A stretch of 64,000 bases of DNA. Origin: Bacteroidales bacterium (lineage in GTDB: Bacteria > Bacteroidota > Bacteroidia > Bacteroidales > VadinHA17). The DNA is taken from positions 7,561 to 71,560 of the forward strand of contig JALONV010000009.1 in assembly GCA_025454755.1 (NCBI GenBank), in the 5' to 3' direction. Of this stretch, positions 7,206-49,611 are shown piece by piece. The notes below the pieces were generated by a model that had not been told where the DNA came from, did no database searches, and was given only the letters and a program-made list of their open reading frames with translations. Position numbers and translations under genes: made by a program. Numbering within the stretch: position 1 is the first letter of the stretch; each line of letters starts with the position of its first letter.

Positions 7206-7287
7206 TATCTTTGGTAAGTGTTTCCAAACGTGCTAAATAATTTTGGATATGCTAATAAGAACATTTGCCAGTGCCGTTACCGGTATT
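7206..7287 (+). pseudogene. Duplicated promoter and first 13 codons of comM (relic)
   Basis: 7249..7287 is 38/39 identical to 8016..8054 (MLIRTFASAVTGI); upstream GTGTTTCC and GTGCTA are also shared; TATCTTTG -7 box at 7206. Confidence 0.9.
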
Positions 7288-7350
7288 TTTGATTCTGTCG
7301 TTGACATTTCTAATTTAAATCCTCAAACTGATAAATGGCCAATACAATTT

Positions 7351-7375
7351 AACTGGTCGCAATTTGCGACCAGTT
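7351..7375. promoter_or_regulatory. Perfect 25-bp palindrome upstream of ORF6N gene, candidate operator
   Basis: AACTGGTCGCAA-T-TTGCGACCAGTT, ending 17 nt before the ATG at 7393. Confidence 0.6.
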
Positions 7376-7392
7376 CATAATTAGCTGTCTTT

Positions 7393-7920
7393 ATGATAAG
7401 CAAACTAATAAAAGCAGATTATAAATCTCTGATATTTGAGTTCAGAGGGTACAAAGTAATGGTTGATTTTGACCTTTCAATATTATATGGTATTGAAACA
7501 AAACGTTTGAAGGAACAAGTAAAGAGAAATATCAGAAGATTCCCGGAAGATTTCATGTTCGAATTAACCAGGGAAGAAAAGGAACACTTGTTAGTGACTT
7601 GTGAACGGTTATCAATGCTTAAACATTCTTCGGTCAGTCCGATGGTTTTTACCGAACAGGGGGTAGCTATGCTTTCATCTGTGCTCCATTCAGAAAAAGC
7701 TATCAGCATCAATATTGAAATTATGAGAGCTTTTTCTCATTACAGAGCATTGTTATATGAAAATAATGAGCTCAGAAGAGAAATTAAAAACCTAGATAAG
7801 AAGATTAATACGGCATTCAGGTTTCTGCTTAGCCGAATAGATGAACTTCACCAAAAGAAAATTGCAAGAAAACCGATAGGATATAAAAATTATGCGGATG
7901 GAGAAAAAGAATCTGATTGA
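7393..7920 (+). CDS. ORF6N domain DNA-binding protein
   Basis: FRGYKVMVDFDLSILYG.ETKRLKEQVKRN..RFPEDFMFEL...FTEQGVAMLSSVL.S..AI.INIEIMRAF; C-terminal RKPIGY. Confidence 0.9.
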   Translation: MISKLIKADYKSLIFEFRGYKVMVDFDLSILYGIETKRLKEQVKRNIRRFPEDFMFELTREEKEHLLVTCERLSMLKHSSVSPMVFTEQGVAMLSSVLHSEKAISINIEIMRAFSHYRALLYENNELRREIKNLDKKINTAFRFLLSRIDELHQKKIARKPIGYKNYADGEKESD

Positions 7921-8015: not shown

Positions 8016-9554
8016 ATGCTTATAAGAACATTTGCCAGTGCCGTTACCGGTATTGACGCAGTGACAGTTACCATAGAGGTTAATGTGTCGCGCGGGATCC
8101 GTTTTTTTCTTGTAGGACTGCCAGATGTTGCAGTCAAGGAGAGCCAGCAGAGAATTGAATCTGCCCTCCGTTCGTTAGGTCATAAATGGCCCGGCAAACA
8201 GGTACTGATAAACATGGCCCCTGCAGACATCAGGAAAGAGGGATCATCATACGACCTTCCCCTTGCAATGGGCATACTTACTGCCGATGAAAAAGTAGTA
8301 AAAGACGAAATAGAATCCTATATATTGATGGGAGAGCTTTCCCTTGACGGAACTCTTCAGCCGGTGAGAGGTGTGCTGCCTATCGCTCTCAGGGCACGTG
8401 AGGAGAAGTTCAGGGGTGTCATAGTCCCCGTAAAAAATGCACGCGAAGCAGCTGTGGTAAATGGTCTGGATGTTTTTGGTATGGAGAATCTTGGTGAAGT
8501 GGTCGATTTCTTCAATGGCATGAAGAAATTCGAACCGGTTAAAGTCGATCTGATGGAGATCTTCAACAATGAAGCAAACAAATATGATGTTGATTTTTCT
8601 GATGTCAGGGGACAGGAAAATGTCAAGAGGGCCCTGGAGGTGGCTGCCGCAGGCGGCCACAACATACTTATGATCGGCCCTCCCGGCGCAGGCAAAACGA
8701 TGCTGGCAAAAAGGATCCCTACAATAATTCCGCCTCTGACCCTCGAGGAAGCCCTGGAAACCACCAAGATACACTCTGTCGCGGGAAAGATCGACGACCA
8801 TACTGCCCTCATGACCCGAAGACCTTTCCGGTCGCCACACCATACTATTTCAGATGTTGCGCTTGTTGGCGGAGGAACATTCCCCCAGCCGGGAGAAATA
8901 TCTCTTGGCCATAACGGAGTACTTTTCCTCGACGAACTGCCGGAATTCAAGCGTACTGTGCTCGAAGTAATGAGACAACCTCTTGAAGACAGGGTTATAA
9001 CTATCTCCAGGGCTAAATCGACAGTGGATTATCCTGCTTCATTTATGCTGGTAGCAAGCATGAATCCCTGTCCGTGCGGATTCCATAACCACCCGGAAAA
9101 AGAGTGCATGTGCTCTCCCGGTATGGTTCAAAAATACCTTAACAGGATCTCTGGTCCTCTGCTTGACAGAATAGATATACATATCGAGGTTGTCCCCGTG
9201 AAATATGACAAACTGACAGAATCAGGAAAAACTGAGAAATCAGCTGTTGTAAGGGAAAGAGTGGTAAAGGCCAGGGCAATACAGGCAGCCAGGTTTGCTA
9301 CAATAAAGGGAGTCTATTCGAATGCACATATGTCATCGTCAATGCAGAGAAGATATTGCCAGCTCGATGAAACGGGAGGAAGGCTTCTTAAGACTGCCAT
9401 GGAGCTTAGAGGATTATCGGCAAGAGCATACGACAGGATTCTGAAAGTGGCGCGTACTATTGCCGATCTGGCTGAATCGGAAAATATTACATCTGAACAT
9501 ATTTCTGAGGCAATCAACTACAGGAATCTCGACAGAGAAGGCTGGGCTGGCTGA
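8016..9554 (+). CDS. comM: YifB/ComM Mg-chelatase-like AAA+ ATPase
   Basis: NMAPADIRKEGSSYDLP, GELSLDG, GPPGAGKT, FRSPHHT, LFLDELPEF, MNPCPCG, SGPLLDRID, LSARAYDRILKVARTIADL. Confidence 0.95.
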   Translation: MLIRTFASAVTGIDAVTVTIEVNVSRGIRFFLVGLPDVAVKESQQRIESALRSLGHKWPGKQVLINMAPADIRKEGSSYDLPLAMGILTADEKVVKDEIESYILMGELSLDGTLQPVRGVLPIALRAREEKFRGVIVPVKNAREAAVVNGLDVFGMENLGEVVDFFNGMKKFEPVKVDLMEIFNNEANKYDVDFSDVRGQENVKRALEVAAAGGHNILMIGPPGAGKTMLAKRIPTIIPPLTLEEALETTKIHSVAGKIDDHTALMTRRPFRSPHHTISDVALVGGGTFPQPGEISLGHNGVLFLDELPEFKRTVLEVMRQPLEDRVITISRAKSTVDYPASFMLVASMNPCPCGFHNHPEKECMCSPGMVQKYLNRISGPLLDRIDIHIEVVPVKYDKLTESGKTEKSAVVRERVVKARAIQAARFATIKGVYSNAHMSSSMQRRYCQLDETGGRLLKTAMELRGLSARAYDRILKVARTIADLAESENITSEHISEAINYRNLDREGWAG

Positions 9555-9558
9555 GTTC

Positions 9559-9654
9559 GGCTTCGCTCACTCAGACCAGCCCAGGCTTCGCTCACTCAGA
9601 CCAGCCCAGGCTTCGCTCACTCAGACCAGCCCAGGCTTCGCTCACTCAGACCAG
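9559..9654 (+). repeat. Tandem repeat, 25-bp unit GGCTTCGCTCACTCAGACCAGCCCA, 3 full copies plus 21 bp
   Basis: Read directly from sequence; units are identical. Confidence 0.97.
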
Positions 9655-9679
9655 GTTATAATTAGTTTGCTGCAAATCC

Positions 9680-10048
9680 ATGAAAAGACTTTATGTATAT
9701 ATTTTAGAATGTGCAGATGATAGCTTTTACGTAGGAGTTACTAATAATGTCGGAAGACGGTTTATTGAACACATGACTGGTATAAAAGAGAATTCATACA
9801 CTTTCAACAGAAGGCCTTTGAAATTAGTGTTTTGCAGGGAATTTGAGCGGCCAATGAAAGCAATTAATTATGAGAAACAGGTAAAAGGTTGGACAAGAGC
9901 CAAAAAAATGGCACTCATCAATTCGGATTTTAAGCTCTTACATGAATTAGCTAAATGTAAAAACGAAACATCTCATACAAATTACATGGTCAGAGTGAGC
10001 GAAGCCGAACGAGGACCATGTAAGCGAAGCCGAACGAGGACCATGTAA
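9680..10048 (+). CDS. Small GIY-YIG nuclease (UPF0213/YazA-like)
   Basis: YVYILECADDSFYVG, RRFIEH, EKQVKGWTRAKK; the last ~20 aa are encoded by the downstream repeat. Confidence 0.9.
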   Translation: MKRLYVYILECADDSFYVGVTNNVGRRFIEHMTGIKENSYTFNRRPLKLVFCREFERPMKAINYEKQVKGWTRAKKMALINSDFKLLHELAKCKNETSHTNYMVRVSEAERGPCKRSRTRTM

Positions 10049-10092
10049 GCGAAGCCGAACGAGGACCATGTAAGCGAAGCCGAACGATGACC
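9998..10092 (+). repeat. Tandem repeat, 25-bp unit AGCGAAGCCGAACGAGGACCATGTA, 3 full copies plus a partial copy
   Basis: Read directly from sequence. Confidence 0.97.
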
Positions 10093-10100
10093 CAGTTACA

Positions 10101-10178
10101 GGAGTGATTTTCCTTTGTGCTCTTAGTGGTTAAAATTTAAAATCATTTTATTCCTCAATTTCAAGCTAAAATCACTCC
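10101..10178. repeat. 78-bp segment bounded by 11-bp perfect inverted repeats
   Basis: GGAGTGATTTT (10101) and AAAATCACTCC (10168). Confidence 0.6.
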
Positions 10179-10280
10179 CAATCCTCTTAATACTTAAATC
10201 GATATTAATATTGGTTTTATTTGCAGTCTTGTTAATTTTTGTTAATTTTATCTTGTTAAAACCTACCTGATTAACCCGGC

Positions 10281-11396
10281 ATGGATCTCACCCGCAAGAT
10301 TCGCACCATGTTGATGGAGCAGCGCCTTATGTTTGTATACAGAGGCATTGTAACAAATGATAATTCCATACCCCTGCTGATGCTTCTTGAAAAAGAGATG
10401 GAGACCGCTGAATTCGGATTTGTAGGCCGTAAAAGACTTTTTATGTTTGTTCTGGAGAGCCTTCAGAATGTTTCACGACACAGCAACGGGACGGTTCATT
10501 CAAATATGTCGCTGGTTGTCTATTCCAAGCAAAGTGGAGGTTATACCGTTACGACCGGGAATGTCATTTCCACTGCCAATATAGAAGATCTTAAGAAGCG
10601 CCTCGATGAGATAAACAACCTGGCCACCGATGAGATCAGGAATGTGTACAGGCAAATGCTGAGTAATTCAGAATTCAGCAGTAAGGGCGGCGCCGGGCTG
10701 GGCCTTATTGAAATGGCCAAGAAAACAGGAAACAAACTCGATTATGACTTCCTGAAGCTCGACGATCAGAACTCATACTTTATCCTGAGCAAAACTGTTG
10801 ATTCTGAAGGAACCGGTGTTCATTTCAGTAACAACGAAAAACCTTTTCACGGGAAGGCCGTGTCACAACTCGAAAGAATCATGGCAGATAACAATATCTA
10901 TCTTCTCTGGTCGGGACATATTACTCCGGATGTCGGAAAAGAGGTTATTTCATTTACCGAGACGAAGCTCTCTGAAGATGATATTGAAGCAAACCTGAGA
11001 AGGAGGGTATTCAGCATTCTTGTCGAGATAATAGAGAATGTGGCAAAATACAGTCCGGGGAAGGAGGCTGAAGAGAAATTCGGAATGCCTGTGGCAATGA
11101 TAAGGTTTGAGAATAAAACATACTCTCTTACAACAGGCAACCTTATCCTTAATGAAAAAGTCGCTCATCTGAAGGAAAAACTCGAACTGATCAATCAGTA
11201 CGACAAAATAGGACTCAAGGAATTATTCAGGAAATCTCTTTCAGGCCAGACAATAAATTCTGAAAGCACCGGCAACATGGGTTTGATAGATATGGCAAGA
11301 AAATCAGGGAGCAAGCTGGCATACGAATTTGAAGAAATAAACGACCAGTTTTCCTATTACACCCTTACCGTTAAGGTTGAGGATAGACCTCTTTAA
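10281..11396 (+). CDS. SiaB-family (GHKL-like) protein kinase, tandem two-domain form
   Basis: Two homologous halves: ESLQNVSRHS...TTGN...GGAGLGLIEMAKKTG and EIIENVAKYS...TTGN...TGNMGLIDMARKSG. Confidence 0.8.
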   Translation: MDLTRKIRTMLMEQRLMFVYRGIVTNDNSIPLLMLLEKEMETAEFGFVGRKRLFMFVLESLQNVSRHSNGTVHSNMSLVVYSKQSGGYTVTTGNVISTANIEDLKKRLDEINNLATDEIRNVYRQMLSNSEFSSKGGAGLGLIEMAKKTGNKLDYDFLKLDDQNSYFILSKTVDSEGTGVHFSNNEKPFHGKAVSQLERIMADNNIYLLWSGHITPDVGKEVISFTETKLSEDDIEANLRRRVFSILVEIIENVAKYSPGKEAEEKFGMPVAMIRFENKTYSLTTGNLILNEKVAHLKEKLELINQYDKIGLKELFRKSLSGQTINSESTGNMGLIDMARKSGSKLAYEFEEINDQFSYYTLTVKVEDRPL

Positions 11397-49443: not shown

Positions 49444-49611
49444 TGCCCTCACACCCTCTCGCCCTCACGCCCTCTCGCCCTCACGCCCTCTCGCCCTCAC
49501 GCCCTCTCGCCCTCACGCCCTCACGCCCTCACGCCCTCACACCCTCTCGCCCTCACGCCCTCACGCCCTCTCGCCCTCACACCCTCTCGCCCTCACGCCC
49601 TCTCGCCCTCA
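49444..49611 (+). repeat. Octamer tandem repeat C(G/A)CCCTC(A/T), 21 units
   Basis: 168 bp parsed into 21 consecutive 8-bp units, ending 3 nt from the carB stop codon. Confidence 0.97.

What the first reader, a model, noticed from the sequence alone, without database searches (positions are those of the whole stretch)
9542..10092. GIY-YIG nuclease gene enclosed by inverted REP-like repeats, each amplified into a 25-bp x ~4 array: candidate nuclease-driven selfish element
Seen: GTTCGGCTTCGCTCACTCAGACCA (9555-9578) starts at the base after the comM stop codon. Its inverted copy TGGTCAGAGTGAGCGAAGCCGAAC (9987-10010, 1 mismatch) lies in the nuclease 3' end. Both sides are expanded into tandem arrays with the same period (25 bp) and the same copy number (3 full plus one partial) but different variable parts. 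Known: REP/REPIN elements flank their RAYT (HUH) transposase genes in this layout; GIY-YIG is a different catalytic fold. Inference: a REPtron-like unit in which a minimal GIY-YIG nickase, not an HUH enzyme, acts on and propagates its own palindromic repeats. It could be a source of the many orphan palindromes in this window.
Basis: partly seen in the sequence, partly recalled or inferred. Interest (0 to 1): 0.88.

Follow-up and report, generated by a model that had tools for sequence, protein, structure and literature searches.

The report
Small nuclease gene inside hairpin repeats
A 100-residue GIY-YIG nuclease gene sits between two inverted copies of a very stable DNA hairpin, each recently expanded into a short tandem array, and the same gene-plus-hairpin pairing recurs across several bacterial phyla, which suggests a nuclease-linked repeat element of a kind that I did not find described.

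Summary
There are two 25-bp x 3.8 arrays, at 9559-9654 and 9998-10092, and a 24-nt inverted repeat. They bracket a GIY-YIG (UPF0213-type) ORF that starts 125 nt after the comM stop.

The repeat is a hairpin with an 8-bp covarying stem and a conserved 12-nt apex, GAGCGNAGYCGA. The apex contains the published "mini-hairpin DNA" motif GCGNAGC.

This is a family trait, not a one-off:
- 28 of 31 loci encoding relatives at 50% identity or more carry the apex within 350 bp. These come from Bacteroidales, Flavobacteriales, Ignavibacteria and one Halanaerobiales MAG.
- 13 of those 31 also carry short-period arrays.
- Nuclease clades match apex types.
- In some genomes the hairpin is dispersed at 23-66 copies, as singlets and inverted doublets.

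Several results point to a mobile cassette:
- The comM-linked cassette is patchy within the genus.
- It occurs beside a much more divergent comM.
- It decays to gene-less doublets.
- This genome's second paralog is a 699-bp insertion with an exact 64-nt target duplication, and congeners have the empty site.

Not supported: dispersal of this exact repeat in this genome, and its being the source of other palindromes in the window. Nuclease activity on the hairpin is inferred, not shown.

Verdict: the REPtron-like reading is partly supported. This looks like a new variant of a known kind and is of high interest.

The parts
8016..9554 (+). comM/YifB-like Mg-chelatase-family ATPase gene (neighbour). 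Its last codons form the 5' arm of the left hairpin.
   Evidence: Pfam Mg_chelatase E 2.8e-97, ChlI, Mg_chelatase_C; pairing with 9576-9592 (I6-I8)
9537..9589 (+). Left founder hairpin, with the apex in reverse orientation (apex 9555-9570). The stem is built from the comM 3' end and the sequence after the apex.
   Evidence: DNA fold -22.5 kcal/mol, z -6.3, 0 of 200 shuffles as good. In relatives the 3' arm follows each species' own comM codons.
9559..9654 (.). Left tandem array, 25 bp x 3.8, 100% identical units. Each unit is part of the apex plus the right stem arm.
   Evidence: TRF; the repeat finder D2; raised word depth in Logan contigs
9680..10048 (+). GIY-YIG nuclease ORF of 122 aa. The conserved UPF0213-type domain spans about residues 1-100. 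The tail from about 9986 is read-through into the hairpin and array.
   Evidence: PF01541 E 4.8e-16; PDB 1ZG2 (UPF0213 BH0048) E 5.2e-12; 246 homologs, mostly 106 aa; invariant Y5, Y7, Y17, G19, R27, H31, E65 in 30 sequences
9982..10023 (+). Right founder hairpin (arms 9982-9991 / 10014-10023), with the apex in forward orientation (9995-10010)
   Evidence: the repeat finder I23, 10 nt 100% complementary; DNA fold -7.7 kcal/mol, z -3.4
9998..10092 (.). Right tandem array, 25 bp x 3.8, 98% identical. Each unit is part of the apex plus the right stem arm.
   Evidence: TRF; the repeat finder D1; raised word depth
10093..10214 (.). Tail of the inserted segment, holding an 11-nt perfect inverted repeat (10101-10111 / 10168-10178). 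Function unknown.
   Evidence: A relative's contig in run X5 joins 9547 to 10215 with 15 other letters between, i.e. an empty comM-DUF6272 site. The inverted repeat is I22. Part of the tail is shared with the G052 cassette.
10281..11396 (+). DUF6272 gene (downstream neighbour, not part of the element)
   Evidence: PF19788 E 1.9e-65. It directly follows comM in G022 and in the X5 relative.

Best explanation
The locus is one copy of a widespread cassette. A minimal (~100 aa) UPF0213-type GIY-YIG nuclease gene lies between two inverted copies of a REP-like hairpin. The hairpin has a variable but covarying 8-bp stem (consensus GTCAnnnT / AnnnTGAC). Its conserved 12-nt apex, GAGCGNAGYCGA, contains the extraordinarily stable mini-hairpin DNA motif GCGNAGC.

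Shown:
- The hairpin architecture.
- Its tight and clade-specific linkage to the nuclease gene.
- Gain, loss and decay of the cassette at the comM site.
- Its presence beside a divergent comM.
- Dispersed singlets and gene-less inverted doublets in other genomes.
- Recurrent short tandem arrays of hairpin halves next to these genes.
- A recent insertion of the sister-clade cassette in this same genome, with a 64-nt target duplication.

Inferred:
- The nuclease recognises and cuts its cognate hairpin when the hairpin is extruded or single-stranded.
- Host repair and replication then do the copying. This could be homing-like copying of the gene between hairpin copies. It could also be recombination or slippage at microhomology that amplifies hairpin halves into arrays.
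- The two 25-bp arrays here (100% and 98% identical units) are very recent products of that process.
For: Linkage between gene and hairpin:
- The apex lies within 350 bp in 28 of 31 loci whose GIY protein is at least 50% identical, and in 4 of 19 below 50%. Density is 2.85/kb near the gene against 0.09/kb distally. One locus of 51 (L113) was dropped because it held only a 16-residue fragment.

Hairpin structure, from 132 distinct apex contexts in 45 loci:
- Inner stem pairs are formed in 121, 104 and 109 of 132, against shuffle means of 65, 50 and 58, with all four Watson-Crick types.
- 804 of 1056 cells pair in register, against 380-433 when slid.
- The apex N position takes all four bases.
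- This matches GCGNAGC mini-hairpin DNA (PMC13037366; abstract and passages seen).

Cognate specificity, on a tree of 92 GIY ORFs:
- 34 of 35 rows with the bulged-C apex lie in the half of the tree that holds the window's clade.
- The no-bulge apex (GAGCG N1-2 AGCGA) is in 7 of 7 cases inside one clade with 99% SH-aLRT support. That clade holds this genome's second paralog and has no bulged-C apex (0 of 21).
- The labels need 13 changes against a shuffled mean of 34, with 0 of 200 shuffles as low.

Dispersal:
- 40, 50 and 23 copies in three Ignavibacteria genomes, against 0-1 for the control pattern.
- 42 copies against 2 in a complete Sphingomonas genome, mostly as doublets 32-58 bp apart. 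There the GIY gene lies inside a doublet 320 bp apart.
- Bursts of 41, 51 and 66 copies in 3 of 41 genus genomes.

Mobility:
- The comM site is filled in 4 of 30 genus genomes, truncated in 1, and holds a gene-less doublet in 2. It holds a solo hairpin or half-hairpin in 4 (three by the pattern, plus G022's one-mismatch copy read by eye).
- Presence needs at least 9 changes on 36 rows.
- L064 has comM C-terminal identity of 64-70% but GIY identity of 70-82% to the others.
- A relative's contig shows a clean empty site.
- The paralog cassette on C36 is a 699-bp insertion flanked by exact 64-nt direct repeats. G051 and G022 show the single-copy empty site in an alignment, and the match coordinates point the same way in 4 further genus genomes.

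Arrays:
- Short-period arrays lie within 400 bp in 13 of 31 close loci, at 0.53/kb against 0.114/kb distally.
- The orthologs have other periods and copy numbers: G005 has 38 bp x 6.5 and 10 bp x 10.9, and G051 has 24 bp x 2.7.
- Whole-gene tandem units occur at x2 and x7.

Precedent:
- The free-standing GIY-YIG endonuclease SegB drives segmental amplification through cleavage plus microhomology recombination (PMC13096335; abstract and Discussion read).

No rival enzyme:
- None of the 3 Y1_Tnp genes of this genome has such a hairpin within 7 kb.
Against: - No biochemical or expression data exist. Cleavage of the hairpin is inferred from linkage only.
- In this genome the exact repeat occurs nowhere else, so there is no sign of current proliferation here.
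- The 12-mer apex occurs only 11 times in this genome against 3 for the control pattern.
- Genus genome G012 has 41 apex copies but no match to this nuclease with this query. It has only one small GIY gene, 4 kb from a cluster. So copy number does not simply track the gene.
- The ~100-aa protein has no separate DNA-binding domain, unlike characterised homing endonucleases.
- GIY-YIG enzymes form no covalent intermediate, so they cannot themselves transfer strands.
- Both arrays here extend in the same chromosomal direction although the hairpins are inverted. That fits replication slippage at a stable hairpin as well as, or better than, strand-specific nicking.
- Rows on the tree are related, so the clade-apex statistic overstates independence.
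- The comM tree is poorly resolved (2 of 32 inner branches starred).
Confidence: 0.6

Rival explanations
1. This is an ordinary, vertically inherited housekeeping nuclease gene beside comM. The hairpins are structural or regulatory elements of the two transcripts, such as 3' stabilisers or terminators. The arrays arise by plain replication slippage at a very stable hairpin, with no role for the nuclease.
For: - Synteny with comM is seen in 4 of 30 genus genomes (plus one truncated copy) and in 6 named MAG records, one of which duplicates a genus genome.
- GIY identity roughly tracks comM identity within the genus.
- The left hairpin starts at the comM stop codon and its 3' arm follows each species' own comM codons.
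- Both arrays extend in the same chromosomal direction.
- The exact repeat is not dispersed in this genome.
Against: - No terminator-like site was found (0 found, no T-run) and there was no Rfam match.
- Hairpins occur upstream and downstream of the gene in both orientations, and in unrelated contexts across phyla.
- Distribution is patchy and the L064 copy is incongruent with its comM.
- Nuclease clades match apex types, including two different types beside the two paralogs of this one genome.
- The paralog cassette is a fresh insertion with a 64-nt duplication.
Confidence: 0.2
2. The hairpins are REP-type elements moved by some other enzyme, such as a RAYT/IS200-type HUH transposase or host factors. 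The small GIY-YIG genes are only passengers, or preferred landing sites.
For: - This genome encodes 3 Y1_Tnp proteins.
- Hairpin copy number does not track GIY gene presence in G012.
- REPs are known to be mobilised by RAYTs (listing and abstracts seen).
Against: - None of the 3 Y1_Tnp genes lies within 7 kb of a GAGCG-apex hairpin, while both small GIY genes have one within 150 bp.
- 28 of 31 close GIY loci carry the apex, against a background of 0.09/kb.
- The clade-specific apex match is not expected for passengers.
- Di Nocera et al. report that RAYT genes are never flanked by CGTC-type REPs (PMC3733652; passages and section 6 read).
Confidence: 0.12
3. The arrays are assembly or sequencing artefacts of a metagenome-assembled genome.
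For: - The genome is a 160-contig draft.
- Mini-hairpin sequences are reported to disturb sequencing (PMC13037366 abstract).
- Only contigs, not raw reads, could be laid.
Against: - Each array is about 95 bp long.
- Independent Logan assemblies of two coded runs break exactly at the arrays, with 2.6-4x word depth.
- Similar arrays flank the gene in independent assemblies from other projects, in 13 of 31 loci.
Confidence: 0.03

Closest known systems
REP / REPIN - RAYT systems (REPtrons)
   Same: - Short palindromic hairpins dispersed at tens of copies per genome.
- Frequent inverted doublets.
- A nuclease gene flanked by inverted copies of its own repeat type.
- Enzyme clade matches repeat type (REPIN/RAYT listing and abstracts).
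   Different: - The enzyme is a ~100-aa GIY-YIG (UPF0213) protein, not an HUH Y1 transposase. It cannot make a covalent DNA intermediate.
- The apex, not the stem, is the conserved part.
- The gene is often multi-copy, patchy and tandemly amplified, whereas RAYTs are reported as single-copy and vertical (abstract of PMC5581495 seen in the listing).
- In this genome the repeat is not dispersed.
CGTC-tagged REPs (Di Nocera, De Gregorio and Rocco 2013, PMC3733652)
   Same: - Described with a CGTC/TGTC end, 8-9 bp stems and mostly head-to-head dimers.
- Found in Alphaproteobacteria, Chlorobi and Bacteroidetes.
- 'Apparently lack a dedicated transposase'.
- This genome's dispersed hairpins begin TGTC/CGTC followed by AT.
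- Sphingomonas copies are mostly doublets.
   Different: - The paper's Figure 2 with the consensus sequences could not be seen, so identity is not established.
- Here GTCA/TGAC is mostly paired (78-93 of 132), not an unpaired tag.
- Here the unpaired region is 12 nt if the GNA mini-hairpin is not counted as stem.
- The paper does not mention GIY-YIG (0 occurrences).
Free-standing GIY-YIG homing endonucleases (phage T4/T6 Seg family; SegB)
   Same: - A GIY-YIG gene that is present or absent at a fixed intergenic site.
- Apparent horizontal arrival at the same site.
- Association of sister clades with tRNA genes (7 of 30 loci).
- Tandem segmental amplification that includes the endonuclease gene (PMC13096335).
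   Different: - Seg enzymes carry DNA-binding domains and act in phage genomes. This protein is the catalytic domain alone, in bacterial chromosomes.
- It is flanked by a dedicated hairpin repeat.
- Relatives show long direct target duplications of 64 nt, which homing does not produce.
UPF0213 / COG2827 small GIY-YIG proteins (solved structures 1ZG2 and 1YWL)
   Same: Sequence membership: E 5.2e-12 and 2.8e-08 over about 80 residues.
   Different: The depositors' names give these family members no function ('hypothetical UPF0213 protein'). The linkage to hairpin repeats was not found in the literature searched.
IS200/IS605 and other hairpin-ended single-strand transposons
   Same: Subterminal hairpins flank a small nuclease gene. 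The structure is probably recognised at the level of single-stranded DNA (abstract of PMC6006769 seen in the listing).
   Different: - There is no HUH enzyme.
- No defined cleavage tetranucleotide has been identified.
- Target duplications of tens of bases occur in relatives.

Membership tests
GIY-YIG nuclease superfamily (Pfam PF01541) | Profile match above the curated cut-off | tested here: met
   59.3 bits against a cut-off of 22.6, E 4.8e-16, residues 5-76
GIY-YIG nuclease superfamily (Pfam PF01541) | Conserved GIY and YIG tyrosines, Arg, and metal-binding Glu | tested here: met
   Y5, Y7, Y17, G19, R27, H31 and E65 are invariant in 30 aligned homologs. Assigning these to catalytic roles is from recall of the family, not from a call.
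UPF0213 / COG2827 | Domain-only protein of about 100 aa with sequence similarity to BH0048 / EF2693 | tested here: met
   phmmer against PDB: 1ZG2 E 5.2e-12, 1YWL E 2.8e-08. Most homologs are 106 aa.
REP/REPIN-RAYT system | Short palindromic repeat forming a hairpin | tested here: met
   Covarying 8-bp stem in 132 contexts; folds
REP/REPIN-RAYT system | High copy number dispersed in the same genome | tested here: not met
   The exact repeat occurs only at this locus. The apex 12-mer occurs 11 times against 3 for the control in G000. The feature is met in other carriers: 23-66 copies against 0-2.
REP/REPIN-RAYT system | Inverted doublets (REPINs) | tested here: met
   Gene-less doublets at the comM site in G041 and G007. 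Doublets 32-58 bp apart in G060 and G058.
REP/REPIN-RAYT system | The associated enzyme is an HUH Y1 (RAYT) transposase flanked by the repeats | tested here: not met
   The flanked gene is GIY-YIG. The 3 Y1_Tnp genes of G000 have no such hairpin within 7 kb.
CGTC-tagged REPs | CGTC/TGTC end, 8-9 bp stem starting AT, 4-5 nt loop, head-to-head dimers, no flanked transposase | tested here: inconclusive
   Consensus GTCA at -8 to -5 and C or T at -9 (39 each of 132). G000 copies begin TGTC/CGTC-AT. Doublets predominate in G060. The paper's consensus figure could not be seen.
Free-standing homing endonuclease gene | Presence/absence polymorphism at one site, with phylogenetic incongruence | tested here: met
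   Filled in 4 of 30 genus genomes, with empty, truncated and doublet states also present; at least 9 changes on 36 rows; L064 incongruence
Free-standing homing endonuclease gene | Cleavage of the empty allele at a long specific site, with a DNA-binding domain | not testable with these tools
   No assay was possible. The protein has no domain beyond the catalytic one.
Insertion sequence / transposon | Terminal inverted repeats plus target-site duplication plus a transposase | tested here: inconclusive
   A 24-nt inverted repeat is present. No direct duplication was seen at this locus. The paralog cassette has a 64-nt duplication. GIY-YIG is not a known transposase fold in bacteria (recall).

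The most novel reading that the evidence does not exclude
UPF0213-type GIY-YIG proteins may be the dedicated enzymes of a second, HUH-independent REP/REPIN-like world, possibly the 'orphan' CGTC-type REPs. Each nuclease clade would recognise the GNA mini-hairpin apex of its cognate hairpin in extruded or single-stranded DNA and nick it. Host repair synthesis would then copy hairpins, doublets and the nuclease gene itself to new sites. This would leave long target duplications and tandem arrays as by-products, across Bacteroidota, Ignavibacteria and Alphaproteobacteria.
Probability: 0.35. Interest if true: 0.9.

Novelty: new variant of a known kind. Interest (0 to 1): 0.8.

Why it matters
UPF0213/COG2827 is a large family of tiny nucleases with solved structures, but the depositors' names give them no function. 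REP-type hairpins of the CGTC kind were reported in 2013 as lacking any dedicated enzyme.

A clade-specific physical coupling between the two would do three things:
- Give both a testable function.
- Add a nuclease fold other than HUH to the REP/REPIN paradigm.
- Offer a natural system in which a structure-specific nuclease and a hyperstable DNA mini-hairpin generate insertions, long target duplications and rapid tandem amplification.

It also explains a common annotation nuisance: variable, repeat-encoded C-terminal tails on small GIY-YIG proteins.

Tried and rejected
- **Rfam.** Only two far sub-threshold miRNA-model hits on 9300-10400. Nothing but a tRNA in 7 related loci.
- **Terminator and promoter scan.** 0 terminator-like sites. 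Promoter-like sites were at chance level.
- **Dispersal of the exact repeat in the own genome.** None found.
- **'Source of other palindromes in the window'.** The 12 strongest short-range inverted repeats share no core with this one.
- **Simple correlation of apex copy number with GIY gene count in the genus.** No clear relation.
- **comM C-terminal tree.** Too poorly resolved to date gains and losses.
- **NCBIfam.** Only a sub-threshold group I intron endonuclease match.
- **Read laying.** Only Logan contigs were available, so array-length heterogeneity, strand and expression could not be read. Parts without cover in X2, X3 and X5 say nothing.
- **Literature searches.**
  - GIY-YIG + YhbQ: 0 papers.
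  - GIY-YIG + repetitive extragenic palindromic: 0 papers.
  - GIY-YIG together with RAYT/REPIN terms: none of the 15 listed papers (of 58 found) holds GIY-YIG.
  - UPF0213/COG2827: 3 unrelated papers.
  - GIY-YIG + Bacteroidetes + repeat + mobile: nothing relevant among 13 listed. One passage read concerned a different protein.
  - The library lacks most subscription journals, and supplements were closed, so prior description cannot be excluded.
Full report
**Observation**

- Tandem Repeats Finder reports 9559-9654 (period 25, 3.8 copies, 100% matches) and 9998-10092 (period 25, 3.8 copies, 98%).
- The repeat finder reports the inverted pair 9555-9578 / 9987-10010 (24 nt, 96%).
- The enclosed ORF 9680-10048 is a GIY-YIG domain protein (PF01541, E 4.8e-16).
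- Upstream lies a comM/YifB-like gene (8016-9554) and downstream a DUF6272 gene.
- The left repeat begins at the base after the comM stop codon.

**What the repeat is**

Each flank holds one complete 'founder' hairpin followed by partial units.
- On the left, the last codons of comM pair with the sequence after the apex (9537-9589). As single-stranded DNA this folds at -22.5 kcal/mol, z -6.3.
- On the right, 9982-9991 pairs with 10014-10023.
- In both arrays the repeated unit is part of the apex plus the right-hand stem arm, so both arrays grow in the same chromosomal direction.

I pooled 132 distinct contexts of the core from 45 related loci.
- The consensus is GTCAnnnT - GAGCGNAGYCGA - AnnnTGAC.
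- The three inner stem pairs are formed in 121, 104 and 109 of 132 contexts. Shuffle means are 65, 50 and 58. All four Watson-Crick types occur.
- 804 of 1056 cells pair in register, against 380-433 when the partner is slid.
- So the stem covaries while the 12-nt apex is conserved, and its N position takes all four bases.
- The apex contains GCGNAGC. A 2026 review describes this, together with GCGNNAGC, as 'mini-hairpin DNA': extraordinarily stable and nuclease-resistant (PMC13037366; abstract and passages read).
- No Rfam family matches and no terminator-like site is present.

**The protein**

- It belongs to the UPF0213 group of domain-only GIY-YIG proteins (PDB 1ZG2 E 5.2e-12, 1YWL E 2.8e-08).
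- There are 246 close homologs in metagenomes, at 65-92% identity among the 119 homologs listed. Most are 106 aa.
- Their C-terminal tails differ and read the same DNA core in different frames (for example ...VSEAER against ...SERSRT). The DNA is conserved, not the peptide.
- The 122-aa ORF here is therefore about 100 aa of domain plus read-through into the array.
- Y5, Y7, Y17, G19, R27, H31 and E65 are invariant in 30 sequences. That is compatible with an active enzyme, though assigning these residues to roles is from recall.

**The pairing is a family trait**

I took 51 loci found by protein similarity alone in a species-level genome collection. One (L113) was dropped as a 16-residue fragment.
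- The apex GAGCGNAGYC lies within 350 bp of the gene in 28 of 31 loci whose protein is at least 50% identical, and in 4 of 19 below that.
- Density is 2.85/kb near the gene against 0.09/kb in the distal parts of the same loci.
- The carriers are labelled Bacteroidales, Flavobacteriales, Ignavibacteria, one Halanaerobiales MAG and a Sphingomonas.
- Only six of these loci are beside comM.
- Short-period arrays (17-74 bp, mostly 19-26) lie within 400 bp in 13 of the 31 close loci (16 of all 50), at 0.53/kb against 0.114/kb distally.
- The orthologs beside comM carry different arrays. G005 has 38 bp x 6.5 on the left and 10 bp x 10.9 on the right. G051 has about 24 bp x 2.7 on the left and 1-2 units on the right.
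- The perfect 25-bp arrays here are therefore recent and lineage-specific. Their equal period and copy number may be coincidence.

**Cognate specificity**

I built a tree of 92 GIY ORFs from all loci in hand. Rows left out: duplicate views of the same locus, the gene-less comM loci and the Y1 loci.
- The bulged-C apex (GAGCGNAGYCGA) flanks 35 rows, and 34 of these lie in the half of the tree that holds the window's clade. By clade it is 14 of 14, 15 of 20 and 4 of 6.
- The no-bulge apex (GAGCG N1-2 AGCGA) flanks 7 rows. All are inside one clade with 99% SH-aLRT support, which holds this genome's second paralog. The bulged-C apex is 0 of 21 in that clade.
- The two clades whose loci include the tRNA-linked ones have neither apex.
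- The labels need 13 changes against a shuffled mean of 34, with 0 of 200 shuffles as low.
- Relatedness inflates this statistic. Even so, within this single genome the two paralogs each sit beside their own apex type, although the no-bulge type is by far the commoner one genome-wide.

**Dispersal**

- The apex 12-mer occurs 40, 50 and 23 times in three Ignavibacteria genomes, against 0-1 for the reversed control pattern. Copies occur as singlets and as inverted doublets 40-50 bp apart.
- A complete Sphingomonas genome has 42 copies against 2, mostly as doublets 32-58 bp apart. Its GIY gene lies inside a doublet whose arms are 320 bp apart.
- In the window's genus most genomes have 0-6 copies, but three have 41, 51 and 66.
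- In the window's own genome the exact repeat is confined to the locus. The other strong palindromes in the window are unrelated.

**Mobility**

I examined the comM 3' flank in 30 genus genomes.

| State of the site | Genomes |
|---|---|
| Cassette present | 4 (G000, G051, G005, G052) |
| 5'-truncated gene | 1 (G049) |
| Gene-less inverted doublet | 2 (G041, G007) |
| Solo hairpin or half-hairpin | 4 (three by the pattern, plus G022's one-mismatch copy read by eye) |
| No pattern match at the site | 19 (two of them, L046 and L053, show a degenerate look-alike read by eye) |

- G022 is the closest relative by comM.
- G009, the sister of filled G052 (98% SH-aLRT), has no trace of the cassette or hairpin.
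- Presence needs at least 9 changes on a 36-row comM tree, but that tree is poorly resolved.
- A MAG labelled Bacteroidaceae (L064) has a comM C-terminus only 64-70% identical to all the others, which are 81-92% identical among themselves. Its GIY protein is 70-82% identical to theirs, and the same hairpin lies at the same junction. This points to horizontal arrival at the same site.
- A contig of a relative in coded run X5 joins 9547 to 10215 with 15 other letters between. That is a clean comM-DUF6272 site.
- Most directly, the sister-clade cassette on contig C36 of this genome is a 699-bp insertion bracketed by exact 64-nt direct repeats. The insertion holds a hairpin doublet plus the GIY gene.
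- G051 and G022 show the single-copy empty site in an alignment. In 4 further genus genomes the matches to the two flanks abut or overlap in the same way.
- Other clades sit just downstream of tRNA or tmRNA genes (7 of 30 loci, all co-oriented), with duplicated tRNA fragments and whole-gene tandem units of x2 and x7.

**Mechanism**

The anatomy and population pattern above are shown. The rest is inferred.
- The nuclease recognises its cognate apex when the hairpin is extruded or single-stranded, and cuts there.
- Repair then copies the gene between hairpin copies, or recombines at microhomology to amplify hairpin halves.
- The closest experimental precedent is the free-standing GIY-YIG endonuclease SegB. 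Its cleavage, followed by recombination at microhomology, amplifies a segment containing its own gene and a tRNA gene (PMC13096335; abstract and Discussion read).

Points against a simple nicking model:
- The two arrays share a chromosomal polarity despite the inverted hairpins, which fits replication slippage at a hyperstable hairpin.
- G012 has 41 apex copies but no match to this nuclease.
- The protein has no DNA-binding domain.

**Comparison with known systems**

- The layout is that of REP/REPIN-RAYT, but the defining HUH enzyme is absent. The three Y1_Tnp genes of this genome have no such hairpin within 7 kb.
- Di Nocera and colleagues described CGTC/TGTC-tagged REPs in Alphaproteobacteria, Chlorobi and Bacteroidetes. 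These are mostly head-to-head dimers that 'apparently lack a dedicated transposase' (PMC3733652; passages and section 6 read).
- The dispersed hairpins of this genome begin TGTC/CGTC-AT and may be the same family. The paper's consensus figure could not be seen, so this stays open.
- I found no paper linking GIY-YIG or UPF0213 to REP-like repeats. The library lacks most subscription journals and supplements were closed.

**Verdict**

- This is a new variant of a known kind.
- Confidence is about 0.9 in the described association and about 0.6 that the nuclease acts on its hairpins.

Noticed in passing
G000 contig C36:4084-4320 (locus L002, about 1295-2121 on the minus strand): The second small GIY-YIG gene of this genome lies in a 699-bp insertion flanked by exact 64-nt direct repeats that include the 3' end of the upstream gene. 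G051 and G022 have the single-copy empty site in an alignment, and the match coordinates suggest the same in 4 further congeners.
   Followed up: yes
Loci L010, L013, L015, L018, L025, L028, L029; L114-L117; L121: Other clades of small GIY-YIG genes sit directly downstream of tRNA or tmRNA genes. They are followed by duplicated tRNA fragments whose anticodon or T-loop region is replaced by a short hairpin. Whole gene-plus-fragment units are tandemly repeated (x2 in G057-G059, x7 with a 364-bp period in G045).
   Followed up: partly
G000 contig C91:10380-10581: A 50-bp x 5 tandem array of the commoner TGTC-type hairpin (GAGCGAAGCGA apex). I saw no GIY gene match there. Neighbours were not examined.
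   Followed up: no
G000 genome-wide: There are 83 hits of the relaxed apex, by my reading about 60 of them in TGTC/CGTC-AT... hairpins of several stem subfamilies. Only 26 of the 83 have an uninterrupted stem of 5 bp or more next to the apex. This is a REP-like population that may correspond to the published CGTC REPs.
   Followed up: partly
window 49445-49611: An 8/16-bp tandem repeat (GCCCTCAC-type, about 21 copies of the 8-mer) listed by Tandem Repeats Finder. It is unrelated to this finding.
   Followed up: no
window 7393-7920: An ORF6N-domain protein gene lies just upstream of comM. The short ORF at 7243-7380 begins with nearly the same peptide as comM, which suggests a duplicated comM 5' end flanking an inserted gene.
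   Followed up: no
L052 (G047), downstream of comM: A long run of almost pure C/G follows the comM stop. It looks like an assembly artefact in that record.
   Followed up: no
window 10101-10178: An 11-nt perfect inverted repeat with a 56-nt spacer lies in the tail of the inserted segment. Part of this tail is shared with the G052 cassette. Its function is unknown.
   Followed up: partly
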